Position numbers and translations under genes: made by a program. DNA of 64,000 nucleotides from Propionibacterium sp. (GTDB lineage: Bacteria; Actinomycetota; Actinomycetes; Propionibacteriales; Propionibacteriaceae), in the NCBI RefSeq assembly GCF_047719395.1, contig NZ_JBDNTB010000005.1, positions 1,431 to 65,430 on the forward strand, written 5' to 3'. The notes under the pieces are model-generated. The model did not search any database. It was not told the origin of the DNA and saw nothing but the letters and a program-made list of their open reading frames with translations. Numbering within the stretch: position 1 is the first letter of the stretch; the number at the start of each line of letters is the position of its first letter. This document shows positions 152 through 62,704 of the stretch, piece by piece.

Positions 152-520
152 GTCATTCCTTTCTTGGAGAGGGAGTCGCTATGAACATTGACTGACCAGG
201 TCTGAGCACGATGCTTTGTGACCCATGGACTGGCACGTCAGAGCTGTGGTGTGGGACACAGGAGGCGGCGACGACTCCTGCGTCTTGCGGTGTGGCGATC
301 TTCGCCTCGGGCGCAGCACATCCGTGGGGATGACGTTTCGCTCGAAAGCGTCAGGCTAGCACTGTGCGGTGCGGGCATGGCCTTCAGCCCTGGACAAGCA
401 CAGGCCGTGAGTGACTTGACGGGCCAACGCCTGTGCACCCGTGTCTCTGGGGCCATGCGCACGACGCGGAGTGCAGCATCGTCGTCCTCCTCTCGGGTTC
501 TCGCAATCCTCCAGACATGC

Positions 521-568
521 GAACGGGCCCCGCAGCGCAATGCCCAAGGCATGCCGCGAGGCCCGTTC
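521..568 (-). terminator. Candidate operon-end hairpin
   Basis: Perfect 9-bp arms gaacgggcc / ggcccgttc with further internal pairing, 11 nt downstream of the flavin reductase stop (579). There is no U-tract. Confidence 0.35.
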
Positions 569-578
569 AGGTTTTCAG

Positions 579-1100
579 TCAGAATCTCCAGTGCATCTCG
601 TCGTGGCCGAAATCGTGGTAGCTGCCGAAATGCCCGGCGTTGAACACCAGTGGTTCACCGTTGCGATATCGCAGTTTTTCCACATGGCCGAAGAAGACCT
701 CGTGGTCTCCCAGCGACGCATGCTGCAGAACAGTGCAATCGGTTTGTACGAGGGCCCGCGCGATGAGTGGAATGCCCGATTCGGTGTGGTCGAACACCTC
801 GTTGGCGAACTTGTCCTCATCGTGCGAGGCGAACCGGCGCGCGACACTCTCCTGTTTCACCCCGAGGATCGACAGTCCGAATCTGCCCGAAGCCATGATC
901 GCATCGTGGGTGCGCGTCTGGTGGTGCAGCGAGATCATCAGGACCGCCGGATCCAGCGTGATCGAGGTCATCGAGTTGATCGTCATTCCCTCGGGGTGCT
1001 CACTGCCGGCGGCGGTGACCACGGCCACGCCAGTCACGAACCGCCCCATGGCATTGCGCATGTGCAATGCATCGGGCTCGACAAGTGCCAAGGTTTTCAT
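579..1100 (-). CDS. Flavin reductase (HpaC/NtaB-like FMN-binding split-barrel), reductase component of a two-component monooxygenase
   Basis: 173-aa ORF with the typical flavin-reductase core FVTGVAVVTA...GMTINSMTSITLDPAVLMISL. It lies in an operon with the HpaB-family oxygenase. Confidence 0.85.
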   Translation of the reverse strand: MKTLALVEPDALHMRNAMGRFVTGVAVVTAAGSEHPEGMTINSMTSITLDPAVLMISLHHQTRTHDAIMASGRFGLSILGVKQESVARRFASHDEDKFANEVFDHTESGIPLIARALVQTDCTVLQHASLGDHEVFFGHVEKLRYRNGEPLVFNAGHFGSYHDFGHDEMHWRF

Positions 1101-1106
1101 TTTCGC

Positions 1107-1460
1107 CTACTTCGGGTAGTAACGAACTTCGAACATTTTCGCGCCGGTCTTCGAGTACCAAGGACCATGTTCCATGCCCGGCGGACGGGTCGCGAATGAG
1201 CCGGCGAAGAACTGCTGGTGCAGCCGCTCGTCGACGAATTCGCCCTCGAAGATGAAGACTTCCTCCCAGAAATCATGGGTGAGCACACCATTCGGTGCCG
1301 TGGTCGTCCCTGGTTCGAATTTGAGGATACGTGTAATCGCGCCTGTTTCGTCATCACGCGAAAGGATCGCTTCACTCAGTCCGTCGATGGGCGGGTCACA
1401 TGGCTGGAATTCGAAGTCGGACCACTGGGTGAACTCGTGTTCTGTCTTCCCCATTGTCAT
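1107..1460 (-). CDS. Cupin domain protein
   Basis: Small beta-barrel-type ORF (HDFWEEVFIFEGEF...PPGMEHGPW). The ATG at 1460 shares its A with the upstream TGA (TGATG). The track start at 1463 is a TTG. Confidence 0.75.
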   Translation of the reverse strand: MTMGKTEHEFTQWSDFEFQPCDPPIDGLSEAILSRDDETGAITRILKFEPGTTTAPNGVLTHDFWEEVFIFEGEFVDERLHQQFFAGSFATRPPGMEHGPWYSKTGAKMFEVRYYPK

Positions 1461-2932
1461 CAACCTTCTTCCGAGATCGGTCCGTCGGGACCATAGCTGT
1501 TGAGGAAATCGTCCAGATCAGCGACCGCTGCTGGATAGTCGAAGTTCTGGTAGGCGTAGACGCCCTTGACGATGAAGGGAGCACCGGCATAGAACATCTC
1601 GTACTGCTGGTGGCGGCCGCCGAATTCAGAGCCGAGAATGTCCCAGGCGAGTTTGAACAGCTTGACGCGTTCCGTGCTGGGAGTCCCCGGCGATTGCACA
1701 TATCGGGCGACATCGTCCTTGGTGAAATCGCTCTCAAGATCCTTGACGCTCGAGGGCAGTTGCAGCACACCACCACCCACCAGGTCTCGAAGGATGTTGA
1801 TGACACGGGGGTAGACCTCTGACTGCAGGCCCATCGACGAGTACAGCGCCTTCGCCCCGGGAACGCAGGTGCCGGACTTGTCGATCTCCGCGGTGTACTC
1901 GGAGGCGAGTACTGCCGACTCGACCGAGGTGGCCAGCGCCGCCAGTTCTCCGAGCTTCTCGCGTACTCCCGGGATCCGGTTCGTCTGGTTGATCTGGGTG
2001 GCCTTGTGAGCGACCGCAGCGATGAACTTCAACTTCGTGGCGAGACGGATCTGTGCCTGCCAGTTGCCGAGCACATGCGCGGGGGTGTCGAAGAACTGCA
2101 GCTTGGTCTTCTCGACGTTCTGATTGATGAAGACCCGGTCCCAGGGGACGAGGACGTCATCGAAGACCACGAGGCAGTCGGATTCATCGAAGCGGGTGGT
2201 AAGCGGGTAGTCGAACGAACTGGTCGCGGCAGGCGCATACGGACGGCGCGAGTAGAGCTTGAGCCCCGTGGTCGCGATCGGCAGCGCGAAGCTGAGGGCC
2301 ACATCTGAATCGTCCGGGCTGAGCGGCTTGATGCAGGTGACGAGGATCTCGTCGGTGACAGGTGATGCAGTGGCCAGCATCTGCGAGCCCCGGACGATCA
2401 GGCCTTCCTCGGTTTCCTTCACAACGCCGACCTGGAGGAACTCGCCCTCCCAGCCTGAGGCGGTCGTCGCGCGAGAGATCTGCGGCGGAACGATCGCGTA
2501 GGTGATGTACCAGTCGTTGGCTGCTGCCTCAGCCTGATACGTGAGGACATTGGCCGCGTAGTCGTGCCCGTCCTCCTGCCCGTACAGATCCGATCTCGCA
2601 GCGAACCCGGCCAGGAAGCTCGAGACGTGGTCAGGGGTTCGACCCAGCCAACCGTGCGAATACTCCGCCCACTTCTCAATGACTTTCCTGCGCTCGGTGA
2701 GTTCTTCCCGAGACTTCGGGGCATAGAAGAGACGGTTCACATTTTTGCCGATTTCTTCGTTGTAGACCTGGAATCCGTTGTCGGGATCTGCTGAAATGTC
2801 GAACAGCGCGGCCACTGATCTTGTGAGGCCCTTGAAGGCAGGGTGCTCACGCACATTCTCAACGGGCTCACCGTCGATGATGACGGTTCTGCCGTCATCG
2901 AGAGAGTCGAGATATTCTTTCCCGCTTCGCAT
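1460..2932 (-). CDS. 4-hydroxyphenylacetate 3-monooxygenase (HpaB) family, FADH2/FMNH2-dependent oxygenase component
   Basis: 490 aa with end-to-end resemblance to HpaB-family proteins: MRSGKEYLDSL..., CLVVFDDVLVPWDRVF, LFKLAWDILGSEFGGRHQQYEMFYAG. Confidence 0.9.
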   Translation of the reverse strand: MRSGKEYLDSLDDGRTVIIDGEPVENVREHPAFKGLTRSVAALFDISADPDNGFQVYNEEIGKNVNRLFYAPKSREELTERRKVIEKWAEYSHGWLGRTPDHVSSFLAGFAARSDLYGQEDGHDYAANVLTYQAEAAANDWYITYAIVPPQISRATTASGWEGEFLQVGVVKETEEGLIVRGSQMLATASPVTDEILVTCIKPLSPDDSDVALSFALPIATTGLKLYSRRPYAPAATSSFDYPLTTRFDESDCLVVFDDVLVPWDRVFINQNVEKTKLQFFDTPAHVLGNWQAQIRLATKLKFIAAVAHKATQINQTNRIPGVREKLGELAALATSVESAVLASEYTAEIDKSGTCVPGAKALYSSMGLQSEVYPRVINILRDLVGGGVLQLPSSVKDLESDFTKDDVARYVQSPGTPSTERVKLFKLAWDILGSEFGGRHQQYEMFYAGAPFIVKGVYAYQNFDYPAAVADLDDFLNSYGPDGPISEEG

Positions 2933-13166: not shown

Positions 13167-14732
13167 TCATTCTCCGATGGGCTGTGATGTCACGGAGAGC
13201 AGACCACGGGCATCGCAGCTGATGCTGATGGTGCGCCGCCACGAGTCGCTGGCTTCAGGGTGATCCGAACGCCGGTGCCAGCCGCGGGTTTCTGGCCTGG
13301 CGATGGCAGCGGCGGCGATCGCACCGCCCACCGTGCGAAGATTGGTGGTCGTGAGGTTCCGCTCGTCGAGCTCATCGTCAGCGGGCAGCCGCGACAGGAA
13401 GTCGAAGGCGCTGCGCAGCCGCTCGTGTTCGCGCACCATGCCGAGGGCGGTGTCGGCTGCGGTGTGGATGCCCTGCAGCGTGCTCACCGGGGTGCACCCA
13501 TCGGGTTCGCGCGGCACAGGTTCACCCGCCGCGGGCAACTGCCCGGATGCCAGCGCCTCACCGACCGCATCACCGGTGACCAGCGCCTGCAGCAGAGACA
13601 CATTGGCCGGGCCCTCGGCGCCCATCGCTCCCGTGCAACTGGCCTCGCCGGCAGCCCGCAGCCCGGGCACCGAGGTTGCGCCATGGGCATCCACCGCGAT
13701 CCCGCCGATCATCGTCTGGGTGGCCAGCCGGACGGGCACCGGCACATGAGCCGGGTCGACACCGTGCTCTCGGCAGGCCCGGGCGGTAGACAAATAGTCA
13801 TCGGAATCCCAGGCGTCCTCGCCGAGAATGCGCGTGTCCAGATAAATATCGCGATGTTTTGCGGCCCGGGCGTCGGCCACCGCGACAGCCAGTTCGCACG
13901 GCGAATGCGGCGGCAGCGACTCCGACCAGATCGGCTGCTGGTCGCCGTCCACCAGATCCGCGCCGTTTCGCCACAGCGTGGAGCCGAGCTCCACCAGGGG
14001 CTCGCCGGGCAGAGCCATCCGGCCCGAGACGGCGAGCGCGGTGGGGGTGAAGAAGACGAACTCCAGGTCTCGCAGGGTGGCACCTGCGCGCAACGCCATG
14101 GCAAGGCCATCGCCGGTGGCGGCCCGCGGCGTGGTGGTGTCTGTCCACAGCTGGCCGGCACCGCCACTGGCCAGCACCACGACGGGCGCCAGGTAGTCGC
14201 CCACAACTCCGTCGCGGCCGAGTACACGCAGTCCCGCCACATGGCCGGATTCGTCGGTCAGCACATCGACGGCCCGGCGGTCGGTGTCGATGCCCAGAGT
14301 GCCCGAGGGCTCGGCGGCCTCGGAGCGAACCAGCGATGACAAGGTGCGATACACCGTCATGCCAGCCGCCTGCCGCGGATCAGGGGTGCTCGGCATGGCT
14401 GCCGCAATGCGGTCGAACTGGTCGAGCACGCGGGGCACAGCATTGAGGAAATCCTTGGCAGCGGTCTGGTCGGCCAGTCCAGCGCCCTCGCGGACAAAGG
14501 CCTCGACGTCCGGCGGGGTGCGCCACTCGTCAAATGGCGAGGTTGCCCAGGCGGTGGCCGATGTGATGAGGCGTTCTCGACTGATCAACACCGAGGGCAC
14601 CCCGGAGGCCAGCAGCCGGGCCGACACGCTGAGGCCTGCAGCGCCGCCACCGACCACCACGACGCCGGTGCGCCGCGTCCACTCCGGCTCAGGCGTGGTG
14701 ATCTGCCGGGCCACTCGCATCGTCGTCGCCAT
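13167..14732 (-). CDS. FAD-dependent oxidoreductase, L-aspartate oxidase/fumarate reductase flavoprotein-like (divergent)
   Basis: Rossmann motif VVVVGGGAAGL. Clear NadB-like blocks VVLASGGAG...TGDGLAMALRAGATLRDLEF and RPETRGWHRRSDHPE. Several canonical catalytic positions appear substituted (see findings). Confidence 0.8.
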   Translation of the reverse strand: MATTMRVARQITTPEPEWTRRTGVVVVGGGAAGLSVSARLLASGVPSVLISRERLITSATAWATSPFDEWRTPPDVEAFVREGAGLADQTAAKDFLNAVPRVLDQFDRIAAAMPSTPDPRQAAGMTVYRTLSSLVRSEAAEPSGTLGIDTDRRAVDVLTDESGHVAGLRVLGRDGVVGDYLAPVVVLASGGAGQLWTDTTTPRAATGDGLAMALRAGATLRDLEFVFFTPTALAVSGRMALPGEPLVELGSTLWRNGADLVDGDQQPIWSESLPPHSPCELAVAVADARAAKHRDIYLDTRILGEDAWDSDDYLSTARACREHGVDPAHVPVPVRLATQTMIGGIAVDAHGATSVPGLRAAGEASCTGAMGAEGPANVSLLQALVTGDAVGEALASGQLPAAGEPVPREPDGCTPVSTLQGIHTAADTALGMVREHERLRSAFDFLSRLPADDELDERNLTTTNLRTVGGAIAAAAIARPETRGWHRRSDHPEASDSWRRTISISCDARGLLSVTSQPIGE

Positions 14733-14782
14733 ATCAGCTCCTGGAAGGCACAGTCGAGGTTCCCGCCCAGCATCCCACAGTG
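14710..14782. repeat. Left copy of the 73-bp direct repeat (contains the SD, ATG and first 7 codons of the nadB-like gene)
   Basis: gccactcgcatcgtcgtcgccatatcagctcctggaaggcacagtcgaggttcccgcccagcatcccacagtg matches 23294-23366 at 67 of 73 positions. Confidence 0.9.
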
Positions 14783-14803
14783 GCTCACCTCAACCCGTCG
14801 ACC

Positions 14804-16237
14804 TCAGCGCTTGTAGTCACCCACCTTGAGCCATCCATCTGAACCAGTCGTCTGGTCGCGGTTGGCGAACCGTACCGGAACCCCGCCATTCACTGGATTC
14901 TTCACCCGCACTGCCAATTCGTAGGTGTCCTTCGGGAGCTTCTCAACCTGGAGGGTCCCCTCTGCCGTGGCCTGCTGACCAGGCTGGATGTTGTCGATCG
15001 AGCGATTGGCGACTGTTGAGGCCACGACATTTCCCGCCTTGTTGAGGAGCGCGATGTCCATTGGCCATGAGTAGTAGAAGGGGGCGACGCCATTGTTCTT
15101 CAGAACCACATCGACATTGATGGGGCCTTGCAGCTCAGTCTTTATGCCGGCCTTTTCTACCTGCATGATGTAGCCCATGGATGCCTCGGACTCGAGAGCG
15201 CTCTGCCGAGAATCACCGCTCACTCCTGGGGCAAAAGCTTGCTGGTTGACGAGCCAGCTGACATGGGACTGCTGAATTGCATAGGACATCCACGGCACAC
15301 AACTCGTCGCCGCAAACAAGCACGATTGACTGTCCGGGTAGACCTCGCCGCCGATTGGAGCCGTTTGCCACTTGTCAAGGGCCCCGGCTGACTTCATCAT
15401 CGAAAGGAAATGCCAACTCTCGGTGGGTAAGGTGGACGGTCCGAACGAATCATCGTGGTAGCCATTGTTCAGTTGGGCATTCCATGTCTCCGGGTAGCGA
15501 GTCAACGTGCGGGTCTTGTGGAAGGAGGAATCCCACTGCTTCGTCAAAGCAACCAGAGTATCTTGATTGGCCAACCAATTCTCCGGGAGGTCCCAGCCAT
15601 TCATGGGATAGGTATGACCCTCACCCCAGAAACCGATCAGCCCCTGCGTGATGAAGCCAATCCGAGGATCGCCATCATAACGTTGCCCCAACGCGGAGAC
15701 CAAGTCCAGCATCATGTTCTTTATTCGGGGATCATCATAATCGGGTGAGAAACTTATGCCATTGTTGTTGTAATCGTCGTAGCGCCGGGTTGTGTCGATT
15801 CCCTCGTCGATCAAATACTGCGGCACGCCTGTTTCACGGCCAGGATAGTCCAGATACAGGCGAAATACGGATTGGTGTCCTCGGGCGGCGATGGCGTTGA
15901 GTTGTGCGTCGAGGGCAGTCCAGTCGTACTGCTTCTCGCCCTTGACGATGGCATTGACAGGTAGATAGAACCATTCCATCGAATAGGGAAGTGCATCTTC
16001 ACTGAACCCGGGTGGTGAGTTCGGATCCGGAGCAAATGGAATGTATCCCTTCAACGCCGTCTCGGCTGGCGGAGCTGCAGTGGGAACATTTGTCCAAGTT
16101 GTCGGCAAATATCGGCTGATAAAAATTCCGCTTGTTAAAGCGACAACTATCAAGATAGCGAATATCACCCACCTTCGAGCAGAGACCTGGTGGTTTGTTG
16201 AGGTCTTCTCAACGGCTGAGGCGGTGTCGCTGTCCAT
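14804..16237 (-). CDS. Membrane-anchored glycoside-hydrolase-like protein (DUF4832-type), paralog 1
   Basis: N-terminal TM anchor WVIFAILIVVALTSGIFI. Blocks shared with paralog 2: ALPYSMEWFYLPVNA, VFRLYLDYPGRETGVPQYLID, GFWGEGHTYPMNG, NGVAPFYYSWPM. Confidence 0.75.
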   Translation of the reverse strand: MDSDTASAVEKTSTNHQVSARRWVIFAILIVVALTSGIFISRYLPTTWTNVPTAAPPAETALKGYIPFAPDPNSPPGFSEDALPYSMEWFYLPVNAIVKGEKQYDWTALDAQLNAIAARGHQSVFRLYLDYPGRETGVPQYLIDEGIDTTRRYDDYNNNGISFSPDYDDPRIKNMMLDLVSALGQRYDGDPRIGFITQGLIGFWGEGHTYPMNGWDLPENWLANQDTLVALTKQWDSSFHKTRTLTRYPETWNAQLNNGYHDDSFGPSTLPTESWHFLSMMKSAGALDKWQTAPIGGEVYPDSQSCLFAATSCVPWMSYAIQQSHVSWLVNQQAFAPGVSGDSRQSALESEASMGYIMQVEKAGIKTELQGPINVDVVLKNNGVAPFYYSWPMDIALLNKAGNVVASTVANRSIDNIQPGQQATAEGTLQVEKLPKDTYELAVRVKNPVNGGVPVRFANRDQTTGSDGWLKVGDYKR

Positions 16238-16304: not shown

Positions 16305-18116
16305 TCAGGGAAGAAGATGACCAATAGTCTTCAGCAGATCCCAATTCACGTTCCCGTTGGCATAGGAGTACCCATTGCCATGCCCATATGACCAACCATC
16401 ACCTGACGCCCATGCGTAGTCAGGACCCCATCCGTAGTTGTAGCCCGGGCCGTAGCCATAACCATAGCCCTGATTGACGGTATTGCCGGCGTCCGTGGTC
16501 TGCCAACTCGTGTTGTAGTCGTGAGAAGCGGGTTGAGAGGTGGTTTGCGGTGCGGCAGTGATTGTGACAGTCGTGGTGGCGGTGGCGGTGGCGGTGGCGG
16601 TGGAGGGCATCGGAGCCGTGGATGCGGCCGTCGTTGCAGATGGAGTCACGGTGGGAATGGGCGTAGAAGTGTCATTCGACGGAGTGACTGAAGCCGAAGG
16701 GGTTGGCTGAGCCTCCGTGCTGCCGCTGCCACTGTTGGTGGCCAGCGTTCCCAGGGTGTCCCAGCCAGTGAGCGTCTGGTCCTGTCCAGCCGCCGCGAAT
16801 TTGAGCGGAACCCCATTTTCCAGAGGGTTCACAACACGCATCACCACGTGGTACGACGCGTTGGGAATGCCATTCAGGGAAATCTCGGTGGAGAATTCGT
16901 TGACTTGACCGGGAAGCACTGCTGACAGATCACCGGGAAGAGTCTTCTTGGCCGAGATTTTCCCGGCGCTGTCCACGAGCGCTACCTCCATTGGCCACGA
17001 ATAATAGAAGGGGGCGACACCGTCATTCTTGAGACGAACCCCGATGCTTGCCGTTCCTCCCTCGGCACTGATACGCGTCTCAGTCGGGCGGATGACATAG
17101 CCCATGGCGGCCTGAGAATCCAAAGCCTTGTTCCGTGCATCGCCGGAATATCCAGGCGCAAAGGCTTGCTGGTTGATGAGCCAACTGACATGGGTTTGCT
17201 GAATTGACGTGGGGATTGGATCGGGAGCGCAGTCCGATGAAAACATGCACGACTGAATATCGGGATAAACTTCCCCGCCGATCGGCTCAGCCTCCCACTT
17301 TTCAGTTGCGCCTGCAGCCTGCAGCTGCGACAAGAAGTGCCAACTGGCACTGGTCAACGTGGCCGAGCCGAAAGAATCATCGTTGTACCCACTGGCCGAC
17401 CCCGCATTCCAGGACTCCGGGTAGCGCACCACGGTGTGCGTGGTGTGGAAGGCGGCATCCCATGCCTCCATCACCTCCGACTGGGTTTCCTGCCCAGGCA
17501 TCCAGTTCTCCGGGGAAGCCGAGCCGTCCATCGGATAGGTGTGATCCTCTCCCCAGAAGCCGATCAAGCCCTGGCTGATGAACCCAATCCTCGGGTCGCC
17601 GTCGTAGCGCTGTCCCAGCGAGGACACGAGATTCAACATCATGCTCTTCACGCGAGGATCGTCGTAATTCGGGGAGAAACTCTTTCCGTTGTTCCCATAG
17701 TCGTTGTAGTGCCGACTGGTGTCGATCCCAGCGTCTATCAAATACTGGGGTACGCCCGTGTCGCGCCCCGGGTAATCGAGATACAACCGGAAAACTGCTT
17801 GGTGCCCACGTCCGGCAATGGCGTTGAGCTGAGAGTCCAGTGCAGTCCAGTCATATTGGCCCTGGCCCTTCACCACTGCGTTCACGGGCAAGTAGAACCA
17901 TTCCATCGAATACGGCAGCGCGTCGCTCCCCAACCCAGATGATGAGTTCGATTCCGGGGCAAAGGGCATGAAGCCCTTCAATGGGTTGCTCGTGGGCGCC
18001 GATGCGGCGGTGAGCGCTTGCCACGATCCTGGGTCGGCTCTCGCAGCGCTGGGCTGAGCGAGTATGGCGAACAGCGCGAGAACAATGGCGAGCAAACGCG
18101 ATGCGTGCTTGGGCAC
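16305..18116 (-). CDS. Secreted glycoside-hydrolase-like protein (DUF4832-type), paralog 2, with a Thr/Pro/Ser linker and a Gly/Tyr/Asn/Trp-rich C-terminal tail
   Basis: GTG start with GGGAG upstream. Signal peptide LLAIVLALFAILAQPSAARA. Same conserved blocks as paralog 1. The tail reads ...TATATATATTTVTITAAPQTT...GYGYGYGPGYNYGWGPDYAWASGDGWSYGHGNGYSYANGNVNW. Confidence 0.75.
   Translation of the reverse strand: MPKHASRLLAIVLALFAILAQPSAARADPGSWQALTAASAPTSNPLKGFMPFAPESNSSSGLGSDALPYSMEWFYLPVNAVVKGQGQYDWTALDSQLNAIAGRGHQAVFRLYLDYPGRDTGVPQYLIDAGIDTSRHYNDYGNNGKSFSPNYDDPRVKSMMLNLVSSLGQRYDGDPRIGFISQGLIGFWGEDHTYPMDGSASPENWMPGQETQSEVMEAWDAAFHTTHTVVRYPESWNAGSASGYNDDSFGSATLTSASWHFLSQLQAAGATEKWEAEPIGGEVYPDIQSCMFSSDCAPDPIPTSIQQTHVSWLINQQAFAPGYSGDARNKALDSQAAMGYVIRPTETRISAEGGTASIGVRLKNDGVAPFYYSWPMEVALVDSAGKISAKKTLPGDLSAVLPGQVNEFSTEISLNGIPNASYHVVMRVVNPLENGVPLKFAAAGQDQTLTGWDTLGTLATNSGSGSTEAQPTPSASVTPSNDTSTPIPTVTPSATTAASTAPMPSTATATATATTTVTITAAPQTTSQPASHDYNTSWQTTDAGNTVNQGYGYGYGPGYNYGWGPDYAWASGDGWSYGHGNGYSYANGNVNWDLLKTIGHLLP
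16575..16604. repeat. Hexanucleotide microsatellite (GGTGGC)x4 plus GGTGGA inside the paralog 2 linker
   Basis: Read directly from the sequence. It encodes the (Ala-Thr)n run and is in-frame, so slippage would change linker length only. Confidence 0.85.
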
Positions 18117-22768: not shown

Positions 22769-23293
22769 GTGTAACTCCTTGGGGCGGGCGGCTTCGACAA
22801 TCGAGGTGCCGCTGGTTCTGCACAGTGAGCCTGCGCCGCCTCAGTGGCGCAGGACACCTCCAAGGCGTCACTGCACCAACCACCATAGAACAGAAGTCTT
22901 GCAGGTGCGGAACCTACGTAGAGGTAGGACCATTCCAGGACCCGGACGGGGCTCAGGTGGCTGGCAAGTCTCTGAAACCAGCGGCGTGTGGTTTGCGCCA
23001 ATCAGGCAGCGCGGCCATCAGATGATGTTCCTGGAAGGAAGGTATCCGCCCTTGCCAGAGGAACTCCCTGGTATGCAGTTGTTGCGAACTGATTCTCGCC
23101 GTCCTGGTTGAAGGAAGAGCCCGCTGATGGTAGCGGTAATCGTGCCTGATATCTGGCATATGTCAATTATTGGTTCAGAAATGGTTGTCAGCCCTCACGC
23201 AGGTGCTGTTGCACGGCCTTTTGCACAGGAGGTCATCTCCGGTTCGCCGCTCTGCGGGTCGGTCACCAGCTCAGCAGATGTGCGCACCAGATG

Positions 23294-23366
23294 GCCGCTC
23301 GCATCGTCGTCGCCATATCAGCTCCGGGAAGGCACAATCGAAGTTCCCGCCCGGCATCCCACGGTG
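23294..23366. repeat. Right copy of the 73-bp direct repeat (fossil SD + ATG; the frame ends after 17 codons)
   Basis: gccgctcgcatcgtcgtcgccatatcagctccgggaaggcacaatcgaagttcccgcccggcatcccacggtg. On the minus strand it reads AGGAG-N6-ATG GCG ACG ACG ATG CGA ..., giving MATTMRAAIWCAHLLSW-stop. Confidence 0.9.
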
Positions 23367-23504
23367 AAGGACCAGCGATCCAGGATGGCACAATTGTTCG
23401 GCGGAGCGCCTCAGCAGCAGGCCAGATGCCGGGAGCCATGGGATCGCCCTGATGCACTTTCGGGTTCGCCACCTGGCTTCCCATGACGATGTTGGTGAGG
23501 ATGG

Positions 23505-39582: not shown

Positions 39583-41523
39583 TCAGCGACGGGCACCCAG
39601 AATCCCCGCGAGATCGTGGATGAGCGGCCCGATCATGATCTCCTCGACCGGCCTGGGCAGCGCGATCGACCAATTGGGATATCTGCCCACGATGCTCGGG
39701 ATGTTCGGGCGTGCTCGCACCAGCGAGGCGTCCTCCAGCGAGGCCAGCACAATGATGCTCGGTGAGTCCGCCAGGGACTGATACCTCGCCCGCACCGCCC
39801 GATGCAGCTCCTCCTCGGTCACCCGCTCGGACGGCTTGTCCGGGTCGATCCCGGCCAGCTCGGCGACGCCGCGGCGGGACTGCTCGAACGCCTCCCAGTC
39901 GGTGTCCTTGCCGATCTTGCGCTGCTGATCCGCGTCGTAGCCGGTGAGCAGGCCGGCCAGCGTCACCTGGTCGTGGGTCGACGAGGTGCCCACGCACAGC
40001 ACGGGGAAATCGGCAGGCGAGGTGCGGCTCGCCGAGCGATTGGCCAGCAGTCCGATGTCGCGCATGCTGTGCTGCACCCCGCTGGGCACGGTGCCCATGT
40101 CCTCCCCGACCACCCACGCTCCGGCGCGCGCGGCCTCCAGCCGCAGGATGGCGAGCATGGCGTCTACGGGATAGTTCACGTACACGCCCTCGGACGCCGA
40201 GCCGTCCACCGGAATCCAGTACAGCCGCCACAGCTGCATCACGTGATCCACCCGCAGGGCCTTGGCGTGCGCCAGTCCCTCGCGCAGCATGTCGATGAAG
40301 GGGACGAAGCCGGCCTGGACGAGTTTCTGCGGCTGGAAGGGGGGCAGGCCCCATCGCTGGCCCTCGGGGTTGAGCAGGTCGGGCGGGCAGCCGATCTCGA
40401 AATCGAAGCAGAGCTCGTCCTGGTAGGCCCAGGCGTCCTGCGAGTTGAGGTCGAATCCGACCGCCAGATCGGCGATGACCTCGACTCCGCTGGTGCAGGC
40501 CTGGGCGTACTGCAGATCGGCCACCCATTGGCACCAGATGTAGAAGAGCACACGGTCGCGGTGTTCGAGGGTGAACTGCTTCACCGCCTGTGAGCCGGGA
40601 TGATGCAGCTCCTCAGGCCAGCTGCGCCAGTCCGACGAGTCCTGGTGCTCGGCGATCGCGCACCAGGCGGCAAAGGTTCGCAGCACGTGGCCCCGGCGGG
40701 CGCAGTAGCTGCGCAGCTCGGGGTTCGTGTCATTGCGCACCTGCTGCCAGATGCGTTCCAAGGCCTGTTTCTTCAGCGACCACACCGCGGGCCTGTCGAT
40801 GATGCGGTACTGGTTGAGCTCGCGTCCGGCGGCGGACAGATCGCTGAGGTCGATCCGCTCGGCCCCGGGCACCGCGCCCGGGGCCACGTGCAGCAGGTTG
40901 AGGAAGTTGCGGCTGGCCGGCGAATAGGGCGAGGCCTGCGGCGAGCTGACCGGCGCGACCGCGTGCACCGGGGAAACCTGGACGCAATCGGCGCCCAGAG
41001 TGGCGGCCTGCCTGCAGATCAGCGCGAGATCTCGGAAGTCGCCGATGCCCCAGGACTGGTTGGAGCGGGCTGCGTACAGCTGCACTTGTAGGCCCCAGCC
41101 CTTGTCAGGCGTCCGCAGGCGGTCGGGAGTACAGATGACGAGGTGATGGGCGCCATGCTCGTCGATCAGGCAGTAATAGCCGGGTTCGCTGATCCTGCCC
41201 TGGACTTCGCGACGCTGGCCGTTCTCCAGCACCAGGGTGCCGAACAGCTGCGGGCGGAACCGGCCGGGCGTACACACGAGTGTCTCGGGCACCGTTGCAG
41301 GGTCGACGGTGAAGTGTCGTTCCACCCTCAGCAGGGTGGAGATCTGGGCCTCGACGATCTGGCCGATCGAGTTGATGTAACTGCCGACCACACCCAGCGG
41401 TGCGAGGCGGGACAGCAGCTGGGTTCGCCAGATGTTCTGAAGAGTTCCGTCGCGGCGCACCTGGGGCGTATCGGGGTTGCCGGTACCGTCATCACGGCCT
41501 GGCAGGGGATACTGCGCACTCAC
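39583..41523 (-). CDS. malQ: 4-alpha-glucanotransferase (amylomaltase) with the actinobacterial N-terminal extension
   Basis: LQVQLYAARSNQSWGIGDFRDL and GH77-like blocks throughout. GTG start. Confidence 0.85.
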   Translation of the reverse strand: MSAQYPLPGRDDGTGNPDTPQVRRDGTLQNIWRTQLLSRLAPLGVVGSYINSIGQIVEAQISTLLRVERHFTVDPATVPETLVCTPGRFRPQLFGTLVLENGQRREVQGRISEPGYYCLIDEHGAHHLVICTPDRLRTPDKGWGLQVQLYAARSNQSWGIGDFRDLALICRQAATLGADCVQVSPVHAVAPVSSPQASPYSPASRNFLNLLHVAPGAVPGAERIDLSDLSAAGRELNQYRIIDRPAVWSLKKQALERIWQQVRNDTNPELRSYCARRGHVLRTFAAWCAIAEHQDSSDWRSWPEELHHPGSQAVKQFTLEHRDRVLFYIWCQWVADLQYAQACTSGVEVIADLAVGFDLNSQDAWAYQDELCFDFEIGCPPDLLNPEGQRWGLPPFQPQKLVQAGFVPFIDMLREGLAHAKALRVDHVMQLWRLYWIPVDGSASEGVYVNYPVDAMLAILRLEAARAGAWVVGEDMGTVPSGVQHSMRDIGLLANRSASRTSPADFPVLCVGTSSTHDQVTLAGLLTGYDADQQRKIGKDTDWEAFEQSRRGVAELAGIDPDKPSERVTEEELHRAVRARYQSLADSPSIIVLASLEDASLVRARPNIPSIVGRYPNWSIALPRPVEEIMIGPLIHDLAGILGARR

Positions 41524-41610
41524 TCAATCAGGTTAACCGAGGCTCGGGAAAGGCCTTGTGATCGGGCTTCACCCCATGAACTGACCGGGGTGCGGATGTC
41601 CCCGGAAGCA

Positions 41611-41766
41611 GCGTCAGATGCTTTGCAGCTGCGGAGGCCACATCCATACCCCGGGGTTCCACCATGACGACCAGTTGACGCAGGGTGGGGCCGGTACCAG
41701 CGGTGGGATGTGCATACGCCCTGCGGCTGACCTGCCTTTCATGCCGCTGCCGTGTTCCCCCACCGC
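41611..41766 (+). other. Conserved non-coding element, copy 1 (sub-motif B at 41611-41656, then sub-motif A at 41697-41766)
   Basis: About 80% identical by eye to 60855-60900 (B) and 60725-60800 (A). It ends 100 nt upstream of the Memo-like gene ATG. Confidence 0.6.
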
Positions 41767-41865
41767 GTCGCCATCGATGATCCACCGCCGACGGGACCGG
41801 CGTGTGCCTACCATCGGTGGGGAGGGCCGGCCAGTGTCGGTCCCGCAGGTGAGGATGTGAGGACC

Positions 41866-42663
41866 ATGACCAGCAGGCCGCCGGCAGTGGCGGGAAGCTT
41901 CTACCCGGCACGGCCCAGGGCGCTGGAAAAGGCCCTGACAAGTGCCTTCGAGGCGGCTGATCCACCGCCCGCCGAGCTCGATCCCTCTCAGGTGAAGGCG
42001 CTCATCGTGCCGCATGCGGGCTACGTCTACTCCGGCTCGACCGCCGCCTCCGGATACGCCCTGCTCAGGGACCGCACCATCGAGATGATCGTGCTGCTGG
42101 GCCCCACACACCGAGTGGGCATCCGTGGCATGGCGCTGCCAGGATGCGACCTCTTCGAGACCCCACTCGGCGAGGTGACCGTCGACGCCGAGCTGGCCAA
42201 GGCTGCCGCTGCGGTGCCGATGGTGGTCACCCGGCCGGATGTGCACGAGTACGAGCACAGCCTGGAGGTGCAGCTGCCCTTCCTGCAGACCGTCTGCCCG
42301 CAGGCCAGCGTGCTGCCGGTGGCTGTCGGCAGCGCGACACCCGCCGAGGTCGGTGCTCTTCTCAACGCCCTGTGGGGCGGCCCGGAGACCATCGTGATCA
42401 TCAGCTCCGACATGTCGCACTTTCACCGCTACGAGGAGGCCCGCCGTATCGATGCCGGCACCATCGACCAGATCCTCGCTTTCGACGACAGCGTCCAACC
42501 CGAGCAGGCCTGCGGCTGCCACCCGATGGACGGCCTGCTGCACGTCGCCGCCGCACACGAACTGCATCCCGCACTGCTTGCTGCGCGCAACAGTGGTGAC
42601 ACCGCTGGCGACCGCGCTCGGGTGGTCGGCTACGCCAGTTTCGCCTTCCAGGAGGCCTCATGA
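41866..42663 (+). CDS. Memo-family protein (AmmeMemoRadiSam system protein B)
   Basis: AGSFYPA...ALIVPHAGYVYSG...HSLEVQLPFLQ. ATGA overlap with the next gene. Confidence 0.85.
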   Translation: MTSRPPAVAGSFYPARPRALEKALTSAFEAADPPPAELDPSQVKALIVPHAGYVYSGSTAASGYALLRDRTIEMIVLLGPTHRVGIRGMALPGCDLFETPLGEVTVDAELAKAAAAVPMVVTRPDVHEYEHSLEVQLPFLQTVCPQASVLPVAVGSATPAEVGALLNALWGGPETIVIISSDMSHFHRYEEARRIDAGTIDQILAFDDSVQPEQACGCHPMDGLLHVAAAHELHPALLAARNSGDTAGDRARVVGYASFAFQEAS

Positions 42664-59785: not shown

Positions 59786-60628
<843 letters not shown>

Positions 60629-60655
60629 GACAACTGAGTTCTCCGGCTCACCATT

Positions 60656-60684
60656 GAGGCCCCGCGGCAATGCCCCGGGGCCTC
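60656..60684 (+). terminator. rpf terminator hairpin
   Basis: gaggccccg / cggggcctc, a perfect 9-bp stem, 28 nt after the stop. No clear U-tract. Confidence 0.5.
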
Positions 60685-60724
60685 TGTCATGCCCGGGCAG
60701 CCTTCCATCAGGTCGCACCTGGTT

Positions 60725-60900
60725 CCAGCGGTTGGGGTGTGCATACGCTCTGCGGCTGAAATGCCCTTTACGCCGCTGCCGTGTTTCCTCGCACCACCGC
60801 AATCGGTGAATCGGTGTTCTTCACGATCAAGACCCGGGCGGCTGCGCGCAAGCAGCGTAGGACGCCTTGCAGCTGCGGAGGGCACATCCGTTCCCCGGGC
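60725..60900 (+). other. Conserved non-coding element, copy 2 (sub-motif A at 60725-60800, then sub-motif B at 60855-60900)
   Basis: Same two sub-motifs as 41611-41766 but in the opposite order. It ends 30 nt upstream of the aat ATG. Confidence 0.6.
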
Positions 60901-60929
60901 GGGGTCGACGGCGGTGACAGACTGGGGTC

Positions 60930-61736
60930 ATGCTCGCCCATGCGTTCGGCCCAGTTGATGCGTGGCCGGACCAGGACCTCGTGGGGTTCAGCAACGATCT
61001 GGACGTCGACATCACCATGGCCGCCTACTCCTCGGGGCTGTTCCCGATGCCGCTGCATGAGTCGGGTTTCGGGGGCATGTGCTGGTGGTCGCCGATGAAC
61101 CGGGGCGTGATCGAGCTGTCCGCGCTGCGAGTTCATCGCAGTCTGCGCAAGATGGCGAAGCATTACACCACCACTGTGGACACGGCCTTCGACCGAGTCA
61201 TCCTCGCGTGCGCGGATCCGCATCGTCCTGGCGGCTGGATCGACGACGAGATCACCCGGGTGTACACCGAGCTGTTCGGCCGGGGCATCGTGCACAGCGT
61301 CGAGACCTGGGACCCCGAGGGCAGGCTGGTCGGCGGGCTCTATGGAGTCTCGATGGGTGGCCTGTTCGCCGGGGAATCGATGTTCCATGATCCTGAGGCC
61401 GGACGGGATGCCTCCAAGGTGGCCTTGGTGCGGCTGGCCGGCATCCTGGGTGCAAGCACAGGAACTGGGCTGACGAGTGAGGTCATGGCCCCGGCCACAC
61501 CGGCAGGCTCCCTGGTGGGGGCTCAACTTTCCGGACCAGGCGGTGCCGGTGCGCTGCTCGACGTGCAGTGGCTCACGCCACACCTGGCGACGATGGGCGC
61601 CGTCGAGATTCCCCGGCGGCGCTATCTGCACCTGCTGGGCGCTGCCTTGGATCGTCCTGGTGCGGTGTGGCCGACGGCCGACGACTCCCGGCGCCGGGGT
61701 TACGGTGTGTTGCCGGAGGGCATCGGCCATGGCTGA
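60930..61736 (+). CDS. aat: Leucyl/phenylalanyl-tRNA--protein transferase
   Basis: AYSSGLFPM...WWSP...LVGGLYGVSMGGLFAGESMF...VEIPRRRYL. Contains a Gly/Ala-rich insertion before LLDVQW. Confidence 0.85.
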   Translation: MLAHAFGPVDAWPDQDLVGFSNDLDVDITMAAYSSGLFPMPLHESGFGGMCWWSPMNRGVIELSALRVHRSLRKMAKHYTTTVDTAFDRVILACADPHRPGGWIDDEITRVYTELFGRGIVHSVETWDPEGRLVGGLYGVSMGGLFAGESMFHDPEAGRDASKVALVRLAGILGASTGTGLTSEVMAPATPAGSLVGAQLSGPGGAGALLDVQWLTPHLATMGAVEIPRRRYLHLLGAALDRPGAVWPTADDSRRRGYGVLPEGIGHG

Positions 61737-61840
61737 GCGGCTGACGAGCTGGCGCGGGCCATTCGCCGAGGTTCGCAATGTGGCCGAAAGCCCGGTCGGC
61801 CCCGAATTCCATGCCCTGATCTCCTGGGGAGGCGGCGATC

Positions 61841-62704
61841 ATGCCTGAGTTGCCGCAGGTGGAGGCCCTGGTGCGGTTGCTGCGCGGCGACCTCGTGGGG
61901 CATGTCATCACGCGGGTGGAAGTGGGTTCCCCCAGCGTCCTCAAGACCTTCGCGTACCCGCCCGAGCGGCTTGTGGGCCAGGAAATCACCGCAGTGACGC
62001 GGCACGGAAAATTCCTCGACATCGGGGCGCCGCCGCTGCACTCGGTATTCCACCTGGCGCGGGCGGGCTGGCTGGTCTGGCACGATGACCTGCCGGAGCG
62101 GAAAGCAGGGCCGGGCAGGGGACGCATTGCCTTGCGCATCGGGCTCGACAGTGGTGCGGGTTTCGACCTCACCGAGGCCGGCACAAAACATCGTCTGGCG
62201 GTGTACATCGTCGTTGATCCCTGCGAGGTACCAGCCATCCAGGGGCTCGGCATCGATCCACTGACCCCAGAATTCACGGTCAACGCGTTGCAAGAACTGC
62301 TGTCAGCAGCGGGACGCACGCGACTGAAGGGTTTGCTGCGCGACCAGCGGGTCATTGCCGGGATCGGCAATGCCTACAGCGACGAGATCCTGCACGACGC
62401 GCGGCTGAGCCCCTTCAAGCCCTGTTCGGCACTCAGCCCAGAGGAGGTGAAGCGCCTGTACACGGCCATCGTCGGTGGTCTGAAGGATGCTCTCGACCAC
62501 ACCCAGGAACTCACCGCAGCCCAGCTCAAGGCCGACAAGCGCACTCGCCTGCGCATCCACGGCCGCACGGGCGAGCCATGCCCCGATTGCGGCATGGCCA
62601 TCGCCGAAGTGAGCTTCGCCGACTCTTCGCTGCAGTATTGCCCGCACTGCCAGACCGGTGGCAAGGTGCTGGCGGACAGAAGGATGAGTCGGCTGCTCAA
62701 GTGA
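61841..62704 (+). CDS. Fpg/Nei-family DNA glycosylase/AP lyase
   Basis: N-terminal MPELPQVE, H2TH region, and C-terminal zinc finger CPDCG...CPHCQ. Confidence 0.85.
   Translation: MPELPQVEALVRLLRGDLVGHVITRVEVGSPSVLKTFAYPPERLVGQEITAVTRHGKFLDIGAPPLHSVFHLARAGWLVWHDDLPERKAGPGRGRIALRIGLDSGAGFDLTEAGTKHRLAVYIVVDPCEVPAIQGLGIDPLTPEFTVNALQELLSAAGRTRLKGLLRDQRVIAGIGNAYSDEILHDARLSPFKPCSALSPEEVKRLYTAIVGGLKDALDHTQELTAAQLKADKRTRLRIHGRTGEPCPDCGMAIAEVSFADSSLQYCPHCQTGGKVLADRRMSRLLK

What the first reader, a model, noticed from the sequence alone, without database searches (positions are those of the whole stretch)
41611..41766. Bipartite conserved non-coding element shared by the AmmeMemoRadiSam and aat leaders, with its two sub-motifs in swapped order
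Sub-motif A reads, in the two copies:
- ccagcggtgggatgtgcatacgccctgcggctgacctgcctttcatgccgctgccgtgttcccccaccgc (41697-41766)
- ccagcggttggggtgtgcatacgctctgcggctgaaatgccctttacgccgctgccgtgtttcctcgcaccaccgc (60725-60800)

Sub-motif B reads:
- gcgtcagatgctttgcagctgcggaggccacatccataccccgggg (41611-41656)
- gcgtaggacgccttgcagctgcggagggcacatccgttccccgggc (60855-60900)

Each pair is about 80% identical, and all four lie on the same strand as the downstream operon. The order is B-A at 41.6 kb and A-B at 60.8 kb.

Structure hints:
- In A, GCGGUGG near the 5' end can pair with CCACCGC at the 3' end, enclosing a GCGGC/GCCGC hairpin.
- CACAUCC in B is complementary to GGAUGUG (copy 1) or GGGUGUG (copy 2, one G-U pair) in A. 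The same long-range helix is therefore possible in both permutations.

This is the behaviour expected of a circularly permuted structured RNA, or of a dispersed repeat family. I do not recognise it as any known riboswitch class.
Basis: seen in the sequence. Interest (0 to 1): 0.7.

Follow-up and report, generated by a model that had tools for sequence, protein, structure and literature searches.

The report
Permuted two-hairpin intergenic DNA repeat
Two intergenic spacers of an uncultured Propionibacterium carry the same ~200-base non-coding insert, made of two hairpin-forming blocks joined in opposite order; it looks like a lineage-specific repeat inserted upstream of the promoters, not a riboswitch or ribozyme in the mRNA leaders.

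Summary
The sequence observation is real. Block A (41697-41780 / 60725-60809, about 80% identical) and block B (41603-41655 / 60847-60899, 85%) are each present exactly twice in the 64 kb, on the same strand, in the order B-A and then A-B.

The "shared leader RNA" reading does not hold:
- The three nearest available Propionibacterium species lack both blocks at the orthologous spacers and in about 98 kb of flanking DNA.
- In the rpf-aat spacer, the element fills almost exactly a 209-nt lineage-specific segment, between a conserved terminator and a conserved -10-like box 6 nt before the aat ATG.
- At Memo it lies upstream of a conserved TACCAT box.

Each block is a self-contained imperfect palindrome of about 70 nt. 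B's CACAUCC pairs inside B, not with A. Rfam gives nothing, and no coding signal was found.

The best reading is a species-specific, DNA-level palindromic repeat of the MITE/REPIN/BIME type, sitting in permissive spacers. The clean block permutation remains a curiosity. It suggests either independent modules or a tandem or circular intermediate. Interest is low to moderate.

The parts
41561..41656 (+). Block Q, copy 1 (contains sub-motif B). The imperfect palindrome runs 41585-41654, with basal stem CCGGGG/CCCCGG, middle stem GGATGT/ACATCC and apical stem AGCAGC..GCTGC. The strongly conserved core is 41603-41655.
   Evidence: 85% identity, E 2e-9. Hairpin -43.5 kcal/mol, z -3.5. The 5' extension to 41561 is only suggestive (p 0.016).
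41657..41780 (+). Block P, copy 1 (contains sub-motif A). The imperfect palindrome runs 41700-41766, with GCGGTGGG/CCCACCGC closing GCGGC/GCCGC. The strongly conserved part is 41693-41780.
   Evidence: 79.8% identity, E 2.7e-14. Hairpin z -1.7. The 5' extension TTCCACCATGACG.. is only suggestive (p 0.03).
60703..60809 (+). Block P, copy 2 (sub-motif A). The palindrome runs 60728-60800. The block starts right after the conserved left anchor ..CCCGGGCAGCC (ends at 60702).
   Evidence: Hairpin z -2.7. The boundary comes from the cross-species alignment.
60810..60906 (+). Block Q, copy 2 (sub-motif B). The palindrome runs 60833-60899, with basal stem CCCGGG/CCCGGG. Relative to copy 1, this basal stem carries one G-C to C-G compensatory change.
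   Evidence: The majority-allele hairpin is -47.2 kcal/mol, z -3.6.
60801..60816 (+). Perfect 8-nt tandem duplication, AATCGGTG AATCGGTG, exactly at the P|Q junction of locus 2. In locus 1, related ATCGRTG / ATCGGGC sequences sit at the two outer ends of the element (41561-41567 and 41772-41779).
   Evidence: TRF; sequence.
60656..60684 (+). rpf terminator-like hairpin. It is ancestral and not part of the repeat. The window carries a G-to-C SNP that fortuitously creates CCCCGGGG.
   Evidence: Conserved in L016 and L019. SNP seen. 29-nt, 90% palindrome.
60918..60923 (+). Conserved -10-like hexamer CAGACT, 6 nt before the aat ATG (60930). This is the geometry of a leaderless mRNA. It lies downstream of the whole element.
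   Evidence: CGGTGnCAGACT is conserved in three species while the rest of the spacer is not. Assignment as a promoter is inference.
41809..41814 (+). Conserved -10-like hexamer TACCAT (within CCTACCATCG), upstream of the Memo RBS and ATG (41866). It lies 29 nt downstream of the end of block P.
   Evidence: Conserved in L033 and L035, and as TACCCT in P. freudenreichii L036. Assignment as a promoter is inference.
41530..41535 (-). -10-like hexamer TAACCT, 6 nt before the malQ GTG (41523). The 37 nt left between malQ and the element would be enough for a leaderless core promoter.
   Evidence: Read from the sequence. Inference only.

Best explanation
The two loci carry copies of one lineage-specific, non-coding DNA repeat of about 205-220 bp. 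It is built from two blocks, P (about 107-124 bp, containing motif A) and Q (about 96 bp, containing motif B). Each block is organised around an imperfect palindrome of about 70 nt. The repeat was inserted at the DNA level into two 'permissive' spacers. One lies between the divergent core promoters of malQ and the Memo/AMMECR1/radical-SAM operon. The other lies between the rpf terminator and the aat core promoter. It therefore behaves like a miniature palindromic repeat of the MITE / REPIN / BIME kind, with the hairpins presumably serving as the structure recognised by whatever copies it. The swapped order arises either because P and Q are separable modules, or because the copies derive from a tandem or circular PQPQ intermediate. 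It is most likely not part of the mature 5' UTRs, and it has no riboswitch-like role.

Shown: the repeat itself, its limits, its palindromes, its absence from relatives, and its position relative to conserved promoter-proximal boxes.

Inferred: the promoter assignments, the mobility, and any copies elsewhere in the genome.
For: 1. Significant two-copy similarity of both blocks.
2. At rpf-aat, the spacer is 301 nt here, against 135 nt and 182 nt in Propionibacterium sp. GCA_049297835 and P. cyclohexanicum. The alignment keeps the terminator hairpin, the left anchor and the 20 nt before the ATG. It leaves a window-specific segment, 60703-60911, of which the element (60703-60906) fills 204 of 209 nt.
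3. No trace of A or B was found by nhmmer or by covariance models in about 98 kb from four related genomes, including both orthologous spacers. The exact cores are absent from 185,579 species-representative genomes and from JGI metagenomes, where only chance hits appeared.
4. The 19 kb between the loci is ordinary syntenic core genome. Memo and aat lie 16.6 kb apart on one contig in the relative, with the same gene order. The repeats are therefore not island att sites.
5. Each block folds as a local hairpin. B has z -3.5 and -3.6, A has z -1.7 and -2.7. There is one compensatory change in B's basal stem (sequence). Plus and minus strands fold about equally well once the blocks are trimmed to the palindromes, as expected for a DNA palindrome.
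6. The covariance models of A and B have as their best non-self hits in the window the reverse strand of the other block, at 15.6-18.8 bits. This hints at an inverted pair of related units.
7. There is no coding signal. A six-frame pseudo-protein search and a full HMMER search both found nothing. The indels between the copies are not multiples of three.
8. Both insertion points leave the conserved -10-like boxes and the terminator intact.
Against: - Only two loci are known. A 'family' and mobility are not demonstrated.
- No target-site duplication, terminal inverted repeats of transposon quality, or parent transposase/RAYT was found.
- The A versus reverse-complement-of-B similarity is weak. 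Smith-Waterman shuffle p values are 0.03-0.5, and covariance-model noise in unrelated coding DNA reaches 17 bits.
- The nearest relatives are distant (62-69% amino-acid identity for Memo and Aat), so absence there shows lineage specificity but not recent insertion.
- At the malQ-Memo spacer no clean empty site can be reconstructed.
- The same orientation relative to the downstream operon in both loci is compatible with an RNA-level role.
- The promoter positions are inferred from conservation and were not mapped.
Confidence: 0.55

Rival explanations
1. This is a one-off ectopic duplication rather than a mobile family. A ~200-bp intergenic patch was copied once between two spacers 19 kb apart, for example by templated repair or via a short tandem or circularised intermediate. 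That intermediate would explain the permutation and the AATCGGTG-AATCGGTG joint. The patch has simply drifted to about 80-85% identity and has no function.
For: - There are exactly two copies of each block in 64 kb, even with covariance models and filters off.
- A and B show similar divergence.
- Both permutations have clean block junctions, and there is an 8-nt tandem at the internal joint.
- A third, unrelated, sharply bounded 74-nt duplicate (92% identical) exists in the same window. This shows that small ectopic duplications do occur here.
Against: - The hairpin potential, including a compensatory change, is retained after about 15-20% divergence.
- A permuted copy needs an extra step, either a circle or a tandem.
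- The genome-wide copy number is unknown, so this cannot be separated from a low-copy family.
Confidence: 0.22
2. This is a cis-acting structured RNA in long 5' UTRs or read-through transcripts. It could be a species-specific regulatory or stabilising element, possibly circularly permuted, that co-regulates the Memo operon and aat.
For: - It has the same orientation as the downstream genes at both loci.
- B hairpins are significantly more stable than shuffles (z about -3.5).
- With untrimmed flanks, the plus strand folds somewhat better than the minus strand.
- A 7-nt A-B complementarity is preserved, with one G-U, in both copies (sequence).
Against: - It is not conserved at the orthologous leaders.
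- It lies upstream of the conserved -10-like boxes, and aat has leaderless geometry.
- There is no Rfam family, hammerhead, twister, pistol, hatchet or credible HDV match.
- There is no terminator or RBS-sequestering platform.
- Whole-locus folds are not better than shuffles.
- The strand asymmetry disappears for the trimmed palindromes.
- B's CACAUCC pairs locally.
- Covariation is untestable with two sequences.
Confidence: 0.1
3. These are independent small RNA genes or protein-binding DNA sites, for example binding sites of a nucleoid-associated or regulatory protein that recognises the palindromes, duplicated at two promoters.
For: - They are palindromic, as many operator or binding arrays are.
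- They sit immediately upstream of the -35 regions of three promoters, by inference.
Against: - Homology extends over 50-90 nt, far more than an operator needs.
- There is no conserved TANNNT box inside the blocks and no U-tailed terminator (sequence).
- There is no conservation in relatives.
Confidence: 0.08

Closest known systems
REP / BIME / REPIN elements of Proteobacteria (REP doublets mobilised by RAYT transposases; PMC3116915, PMC3337134; BIME mosaic architecture from my own knowledge)
   Same: - Extragenic, non-coding, imperfect palindromes.
- Units that occur as inverted pairs joined by short conserved linkers, so that both unit orders occur in arrays.
- Lineage-specific.
- Tolerated in spacers next to terminators and promoters.
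   Different: - The palindromes here are about 70 nt (REP units are about 20-40 nt).
- No GTAG-type conserved head.
- Only two loci are seen, not tens to hundreds.
- The inverted relationship of A and B is weak.
- No RAYT gene is known. This is an actinobacterium, whereas RAYT/REPIN systems are described mainly in Proteobacteria.
- One copy sits between divergent promoters, which is unusual for REPs.
Bacterial MITEs (e.g. Correia, ERIC, Nezha; from my own knowledge)
   Same: - Size of about 200 bp.
- No coding capacity.
- Strong secondary-structure potential.
- Appears as an insertion relative to related genomes.
- Located in intergenic DNA.
   Different: - No clear terminal inverted repeats.
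- No target-site duplication at the outer ends. The only short duplication is internal in locus 2.
- No related IS was identified.
- The two copies are circular permutations, which ordinary cut-and-paste or copy-and-paste MITEs do not produce.
BOX elements of Streptococcus pneumoniae (modular boxA-boxB-boxC repeats; from my own knowledge)
   Same: A modular repeat whose sub-blocks combine differently at different loci and fold into stable hairpins.
   Different: - BOX keeps the A-B-C order and varies module number, not order.
- BOX has more than 100 copies.
- The sequence and the phylum are unrelated.
Circularly permuted small ribozymes (hammerhead types I-III, twister P1/P3/P5) and riboswitch leaders
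   Same: Only the idea that the same helices could form in two permutations. Both are upstream of genes and on the sense strand.
   Different: - No match to any Rfam model.
- No conserved catalytic-core motifs.
- Not conserved across species.
- Probably upstream of the transcription start.

Membership tests
REP/BIME/REPIN | Short imperfect palindrome units in extragenic DNA | tested here: met
   A and B are each about 70-nt imperfect palindromes in spacers with no gene calls. They are longer than classical REPs.
REP/BIME/REPIN | Two related units in inverted orientation forming a doublet | tested here: inconclusive
   Covariance-model cross-hits of A on the reverse strand of B, and vice versa, score 15.6-18.8 bits. 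Noise elsewhere reaches 17 bits, and Smith-Waterman shuffle p values are 0.03-0.5.
REP/BIME/REPIN | Tens to hundreds of copies per genome | not testable with these tools
   There are only 2 loci in 64 kb.
REP/BIME/REPIN | Cognate RAYT (IS200/IS605-like TnpA) in the genome | not testable with these tools
   The whole genome is not available. Pfam families are on record only for window genes from about 41.2 kb on and in the first ~13 kb, and none of them is a transposase.
MITE | Terminal inverted repeats at the element ends | tested here: not met
   The outer ends of the element (41561.. / ..41780; 60703.. / ..60906) are not inverted copies of each other.
MITE | Target-site duplication flanking the insertion | tested here: not met
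   No flanking direct repeat was found at locus 2. ATCGGGC / ATCGATG at the ends of locus 1 match at only 5 of 8 positions. The perfect 8-nt duplication is internal.
MITE | Presence/absence polymorphism relative to related genomes (insertion) | tested here: met
   A 209-nt window-specific segment lies between conserved anchors at rpf-aat. All same-species assemblies carry the element, so no intraspecific empty site was seen.
MITE | No coding capacity | tested here: met
   The six-frame search and the full HMMER search found nothing. There are non-triplet indels between the copies.
Riboswitch / cis-regulatory leader RNA | Conserved in the orthologous leader of related species | tested here: not met
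   Absent upstream of aat in L016 and L019, and upstream of Memo in L033, L035 and L036.
Riboswitch / cis-regulatory leader RNA | Lies between the transcription start and the start codon, with an expression platform | tested here: inconclusive
   The element lies upstream of conserved -10-like boxes, and no terminator-like site was found. The transcription start sites are inferred, not measured.
Riboswitch / cis-regulatory leader RNA | Helices supported by covariation | tested here: inconclusive
   Only two diverged sequences per block. There is one both-sides change per block.
Permuted self-cleaving ribozymes (hammerhead, twister, etc.) | Match to the family covariance model or catalytic core | tested here: not met
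   Rfam 15 gives nothing at the gathering threshold. At E<=10 there is only a 16.5-bit HDV-like hit on the opposite strand, against a gathering score of 50.

The most novel reading that the evidence does not exclude
The two copies are exact circular permutations (QP versus PQ), with gap-free block junctions and an 8-nt duplicated joint. The most novel reading is that this is a tiny non-autonomous element which moves through a circular or tandem ~210-bp intermediate that can be opened at either of two hairpin-flanked points. That would be a mode of spread not described for bacterial miniature repeats. Alternatively, it could be a species-specific permuted structured RNA.
Probability: 0.08. Interest if true: 0.6.

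Novelty: new member of a known kind. Interest (0 to 1): 0.22.

Why it matters
The main value is as a correction. Sequence shared by two 'leaders' here is not a new riboswitch or ribozyme class. It is a lineage-specific palindromic insert sitting upstream of the promoters. If the complete genome shows many copies, it would document a REPIN/BIME-like repeat family in Propionibacterium, a group for which I found no such family in one literature search. The permuted arrangement could then inform how such repeats are copied. If only two copies exist, it is a neutral curiosity.

Tried and rejected
- **Rfam.** Searched at the gathering threshold on the whole window and at E<=10 on both loci. Nothing meaningful was found.
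- **Exact-core scans.** The A core was scanned against 185,579 representative genomes and the B core against JGI metagenomes. Only chance hits in unrelated taxa or in coding DNA appeared. A viral-contig scan also gave chance hits only. blastn against plasmids and phages found nothing.
- **Looking for other copies through spurious ORF calls.** A 921-aa six-frame pseudo-protein was searched against 5.8 billion proteins, and the 89-aa ORF spanning A2-B2 against 1.84 billion representatives. Neither found anything. These negatives are weak.
- **Island att-site idea.** Rejected, because the intervening 19 kb is syntenic core genome.
- **CCCCGGGG as a repeat edge at 60672.** Rejected. It is a strain-specific SNP in the ancestral rpf terminator.
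- **Long-range A-B helix.** Rejected as the preferred fold.
- **Strand asymmetry as evidence for RNA.** It vanished once the sequences were trimmed to the palindromes.
- **Promoter and terminator consensus scans.** No sites were found in either spacer.
- **tRNA scan.** None found.
- **Extending the same-species sequence beyond the window.** The contigs end at the window edges.
- **Literature search for a Propionibacterium palindromic intergenic repeat.** Nothing relevant was found.

Full report
**Source and context.** The window comes from a 66.6-kb contig of an uncultured Propionibacterium sp. MAG. Exact protein matches are WP_415630533 (AmmeMemoRadiSam protein B), WP_415630555 (Aat) and WP_415630532 (4-alpha-glucanotransferase). 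Locus 1 (41524-41865) is the divergent spacer between malQ (39583-41523, minus strand) and the Memo/AMMECR1/radical-SAM operon (ATG at 41866). Locus 2 (60629-60929) lies between an rpf-like transglycosylase/LysM gene (59807-60628) and aat (ATG at 60930), followed by fpg.

**The observation.**
- Sub-motif A: 41693-41780 vs 60721-60809, 79.8% identity over 89 nt, E 2.7e-14.
- Sub-motif B: 41603-41655 vs 60847-60899, 84.9% identity over 53 nt, E 2e-9.
- These figures come, with alignments.
- The core 22-23-mers occur twice each, even with three mismatches allowed, against 0.01 and 0.00 expected.
- nhmmer and covariance models with filters off find no further copy in the 64 kb.
- All four copies lie on the plus strand. 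The order is B-A at 41.6 kb and A-B at 60.8 kb.

**Extent and anatomy.** A permissive gapped comparison suggests that similarity continues at a lower level on the 5' side of both motifs. Semi-global alignment against shuffles gives p 0.03 and p 0.016 for these extensions.
- If the extensions are accepted, each locus is made of two abutting blocks. Q (with B) is 41561-41656 / 60810-60906. P (with A) is 41657-41780 / 60703-60809.
- Locus 1 is then QP and locus 2 is PQ, with no unrelated spacer.
- The P|Q joint in locus 2 is a perfect 8-nt tandem, AATCGGTG AATCGGTG. In locus 1, related ATCGGGC / ATCGATG sequences lie at the two outer ends.
- An apparent further extension of A into CCCCGGGG at 60672 is an artefact. 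That sequence belongs to the rpf terminator, which is conserved in other species. The CCCC is a SNP of this assembly; three other same-species assemblies read GCCGCGGGGC.

**Structure.** Each motif is a self-contained imperfect palindrome.
- B1 (41585-41654) folds at -43.5 kcal/mol, z -3.5.
- B2 in the majority allele (GGCGGATG) folds at -47.2 kcal/mol, z -3.6, with 0 of 200 shuffles as good.
- A1 and A2 have z -1.7 and -2.7.
- Full-locus minimum-energy folds consist of two local hairpins, and are not better than shuffles (z -1.2, -0.7 and -1.3).
- The basal stem of B shows one compensatory change: CCGGGG/CCCCGG versus CCCGGG/CCCGGG.
- With two sequences per block, covariation is otherwise uninformative.
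- When trimmed to the palindromes, plus and minus strands fold about equally well, with equal G-U counts. Nothing therefore favours RNA over DNA as the level at which the palindrome matters.
- The covariance models of A and B have as their best non-self hits the reverse strand of the other block, at 15.6-18.8 bits. The central 30 nt match at 22 of 30 positions. This hints that A and B are diverged inverted copies of one unit.
- That evidence is weak. Noise in unrelated coding DNA reaches 17 bits, and Smith-Waterman shuffle tests give p 0.03-0.5.

**Comparison with relatives.** The nearest available genomes are distant. Aat is 64-68% identical and Memo 62-69% identical at the amino-acid level. 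I fetched the orthologous regions from four genomes:
- Propionibacterium sp. GCA_049297835
- P. cyclohexanicum
- GCA_034286655
- P. freudenreichii

At rpf-aat the spacer is 135 nt and 182 nt in the relatives, against 301 nt here.
- The alignment conserves the terminator hairpin, a left anchor (..ATG.CCGGGC...) and the 20 nt before the ATG (CGGTGnCAGACTnG...ATG).
- It leaves a window-specific segment, 60703-60911.
- The PQ element (60703-60906) fills 204 of those 209 nt. Its limits, derived from the intragenomic comparison, therefore coincide with limits derived independently from the cross-species comparison.
- CAGACT (60918-60923) sits 6 nt before the ATG. This is the geometry typical of actinobacterial leaderless mRNAs (established knowledge; the assignment here is inference). 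The element is thus probably upstream of the aat transcription start.

Upstream of Memo, the only conserved non-coding stretch is CCTACCATCG... plus the RBS region.
- TACCAT (41809-41814) fits the TANNNT -10 pattern and lies 29 nt downstream of the end of block P.
- On the other side, 37 nt remain between the element and the malQ GTG. They contain TAACCT, 6 nt from the start codon.
- In both loci the element therefore occupies the dispensable part of the spacer and leaves core promoters and the terminator intact.

No similarity to A or B was found elsewhere.
- nhmmer and both covariance models find nothing credible in about 98 kb of the relatives.
- The exact cores are absent from 185,579 species-representative genomes and from JGI metagenomes, apart from chance hits.
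- They are also absent from plasmid, phage and viral collections.
- The 19 kb between the loci has the same gene order as in the relatives. The repeats therefore do not bracket an island.

**What it is not.**
- Rfam 15 gives no hit at the gathering threshold. At E<=10 it gives only noise, such as miRNA and snoRNA models and a 16.5-bit HDV-like match on the opposite strand.
- There is no promoter-like or U-tailed terminator-like site in either spacer.
- No tRNA or tmRNA was found.
- There is no protein-coding signal, and the indels between the copies are not multiples of three.

**Interpretation.** The best-supported reading (about 0.55) is a lineage-specific, DNA-level palindromic repeat of the MITE / REPIN / BIME kind, inserted into two permissive spacers. 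The permuted order reflects either separable modules or a tandem or circular intermediate.
- It cannot be filed as a MITE in the strict sense, because no terminal inverted repeats and no flanking target duplication were found.
- REP/REPIN membership cannot be tested for its defining features, namely copy number and a cognate RAYT.
- A one-off ectopic duplication (about 0.22) cannot be separated from a low-copy family. The same window holds a third, unrelated, sharply bounded 74-nt duplicate (14709-14782 / 23293-23366, 92% identical).
- A cis-acting RNA (about 0.10) is disfavoured by the lack of conservation, the position relative to the conserved -10 boxes, the lack of any Rfam relation and the unremarkable whole-locus folds. 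Without transcript mapping it is not excluded.
- An sRNA gene or a protein-binding array is the least likely reading (about 0.08).

**Limits.**
- The rest of this MAG could not be searched, so copy number is the main open point.
- Same-species Logan contigs end at the window edges and are identical at locus 1. At locus 2 they differ by two SNPs.

**Verdict.** The 'permuted structured leader RNA' interpretation is not supported. The element is a new, so far two-copy, member of the general class of bacterial palindromic intergenic repeats. The clean PQ/QP permutation is its only unusual trait.

Noticed in passing
window 14709-14782 and 23293-23366 (minus strand): A sharply bounded 74-nt duplicate, 92% identical. 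At 14.7 kb it forms the RBS, the first 8 codons (MATTMRVA) and about 45 nt of upstream sequence of a 540-aa FAD-type ORF (13167-14789). The second copy lies in a 736-nt divergent spacer (22769-23504) and opens only a 17-codon ORF. It is either a copied promoter and 5' end or a shared leader. There is no Rfam hit.
   Followed up: partly
window 60801-60816: A perfect 8-nt tandem duplication, AATCGGTG x2, exactly at the junction of the A and B blocks. Related ATCGRTG sequences lie at the outer ends of the locus-1 copy.
   Followed up: partly
window 60675 and 60842 (vs L008, L010, L037): Two SNPs separate this assembly from three other same-species assemblies. One weakens the rpf terminator stem (GCCGCGGGGC to GCCCCGGGGC). 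The other removes a base pair from hairpin B2 (GGCGGATG to GGCGGCTG).
   Followed up: yes
window 59872-59924: An AT-rich 19-nt inverted repeat, 95% complementary (GGAAAAGCCTGAGAAATTC / GAATTTCTCAGGCTTTCCC). It lies inside the annotated 5' part of the rpf-like ORF, whose real start is probably at [10 protein letters not shown], near 59942. It may be a 5'-UTR hairpin of rpf. No Rfam family, including ydaO-yuaA, matched.
   Followed up: no
window 60277-60376: A 36-nt tandem repeat of 2.8 copies (93% matches), encoding the Ser/Thr-rich linker of the rpf-like protein.
   Followed up: no
window 15020-16054 vs 16950-17981: Tandem paralogous genes, about 71% identical over about 900 nt, with a spacing of 1927 nt.
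   Followed up: no
window 61729-61848 (L005 3800-3919): Gene callers place a 39-codon ORF that bridges and overlaps the end of aat and the start of fpg in all same-species assemblies. No Pfam family is on record for it.
   Followed up: no
window 1177-1241: A weak hit of the A covariance model (21 bits, E 0.013), in the spacer between convergent genes 441-1199 (+) and 1460-2932 (-). The core of the model is deleted in the match. It is probably just a terminator-like hairpin.
   Followed up: partly
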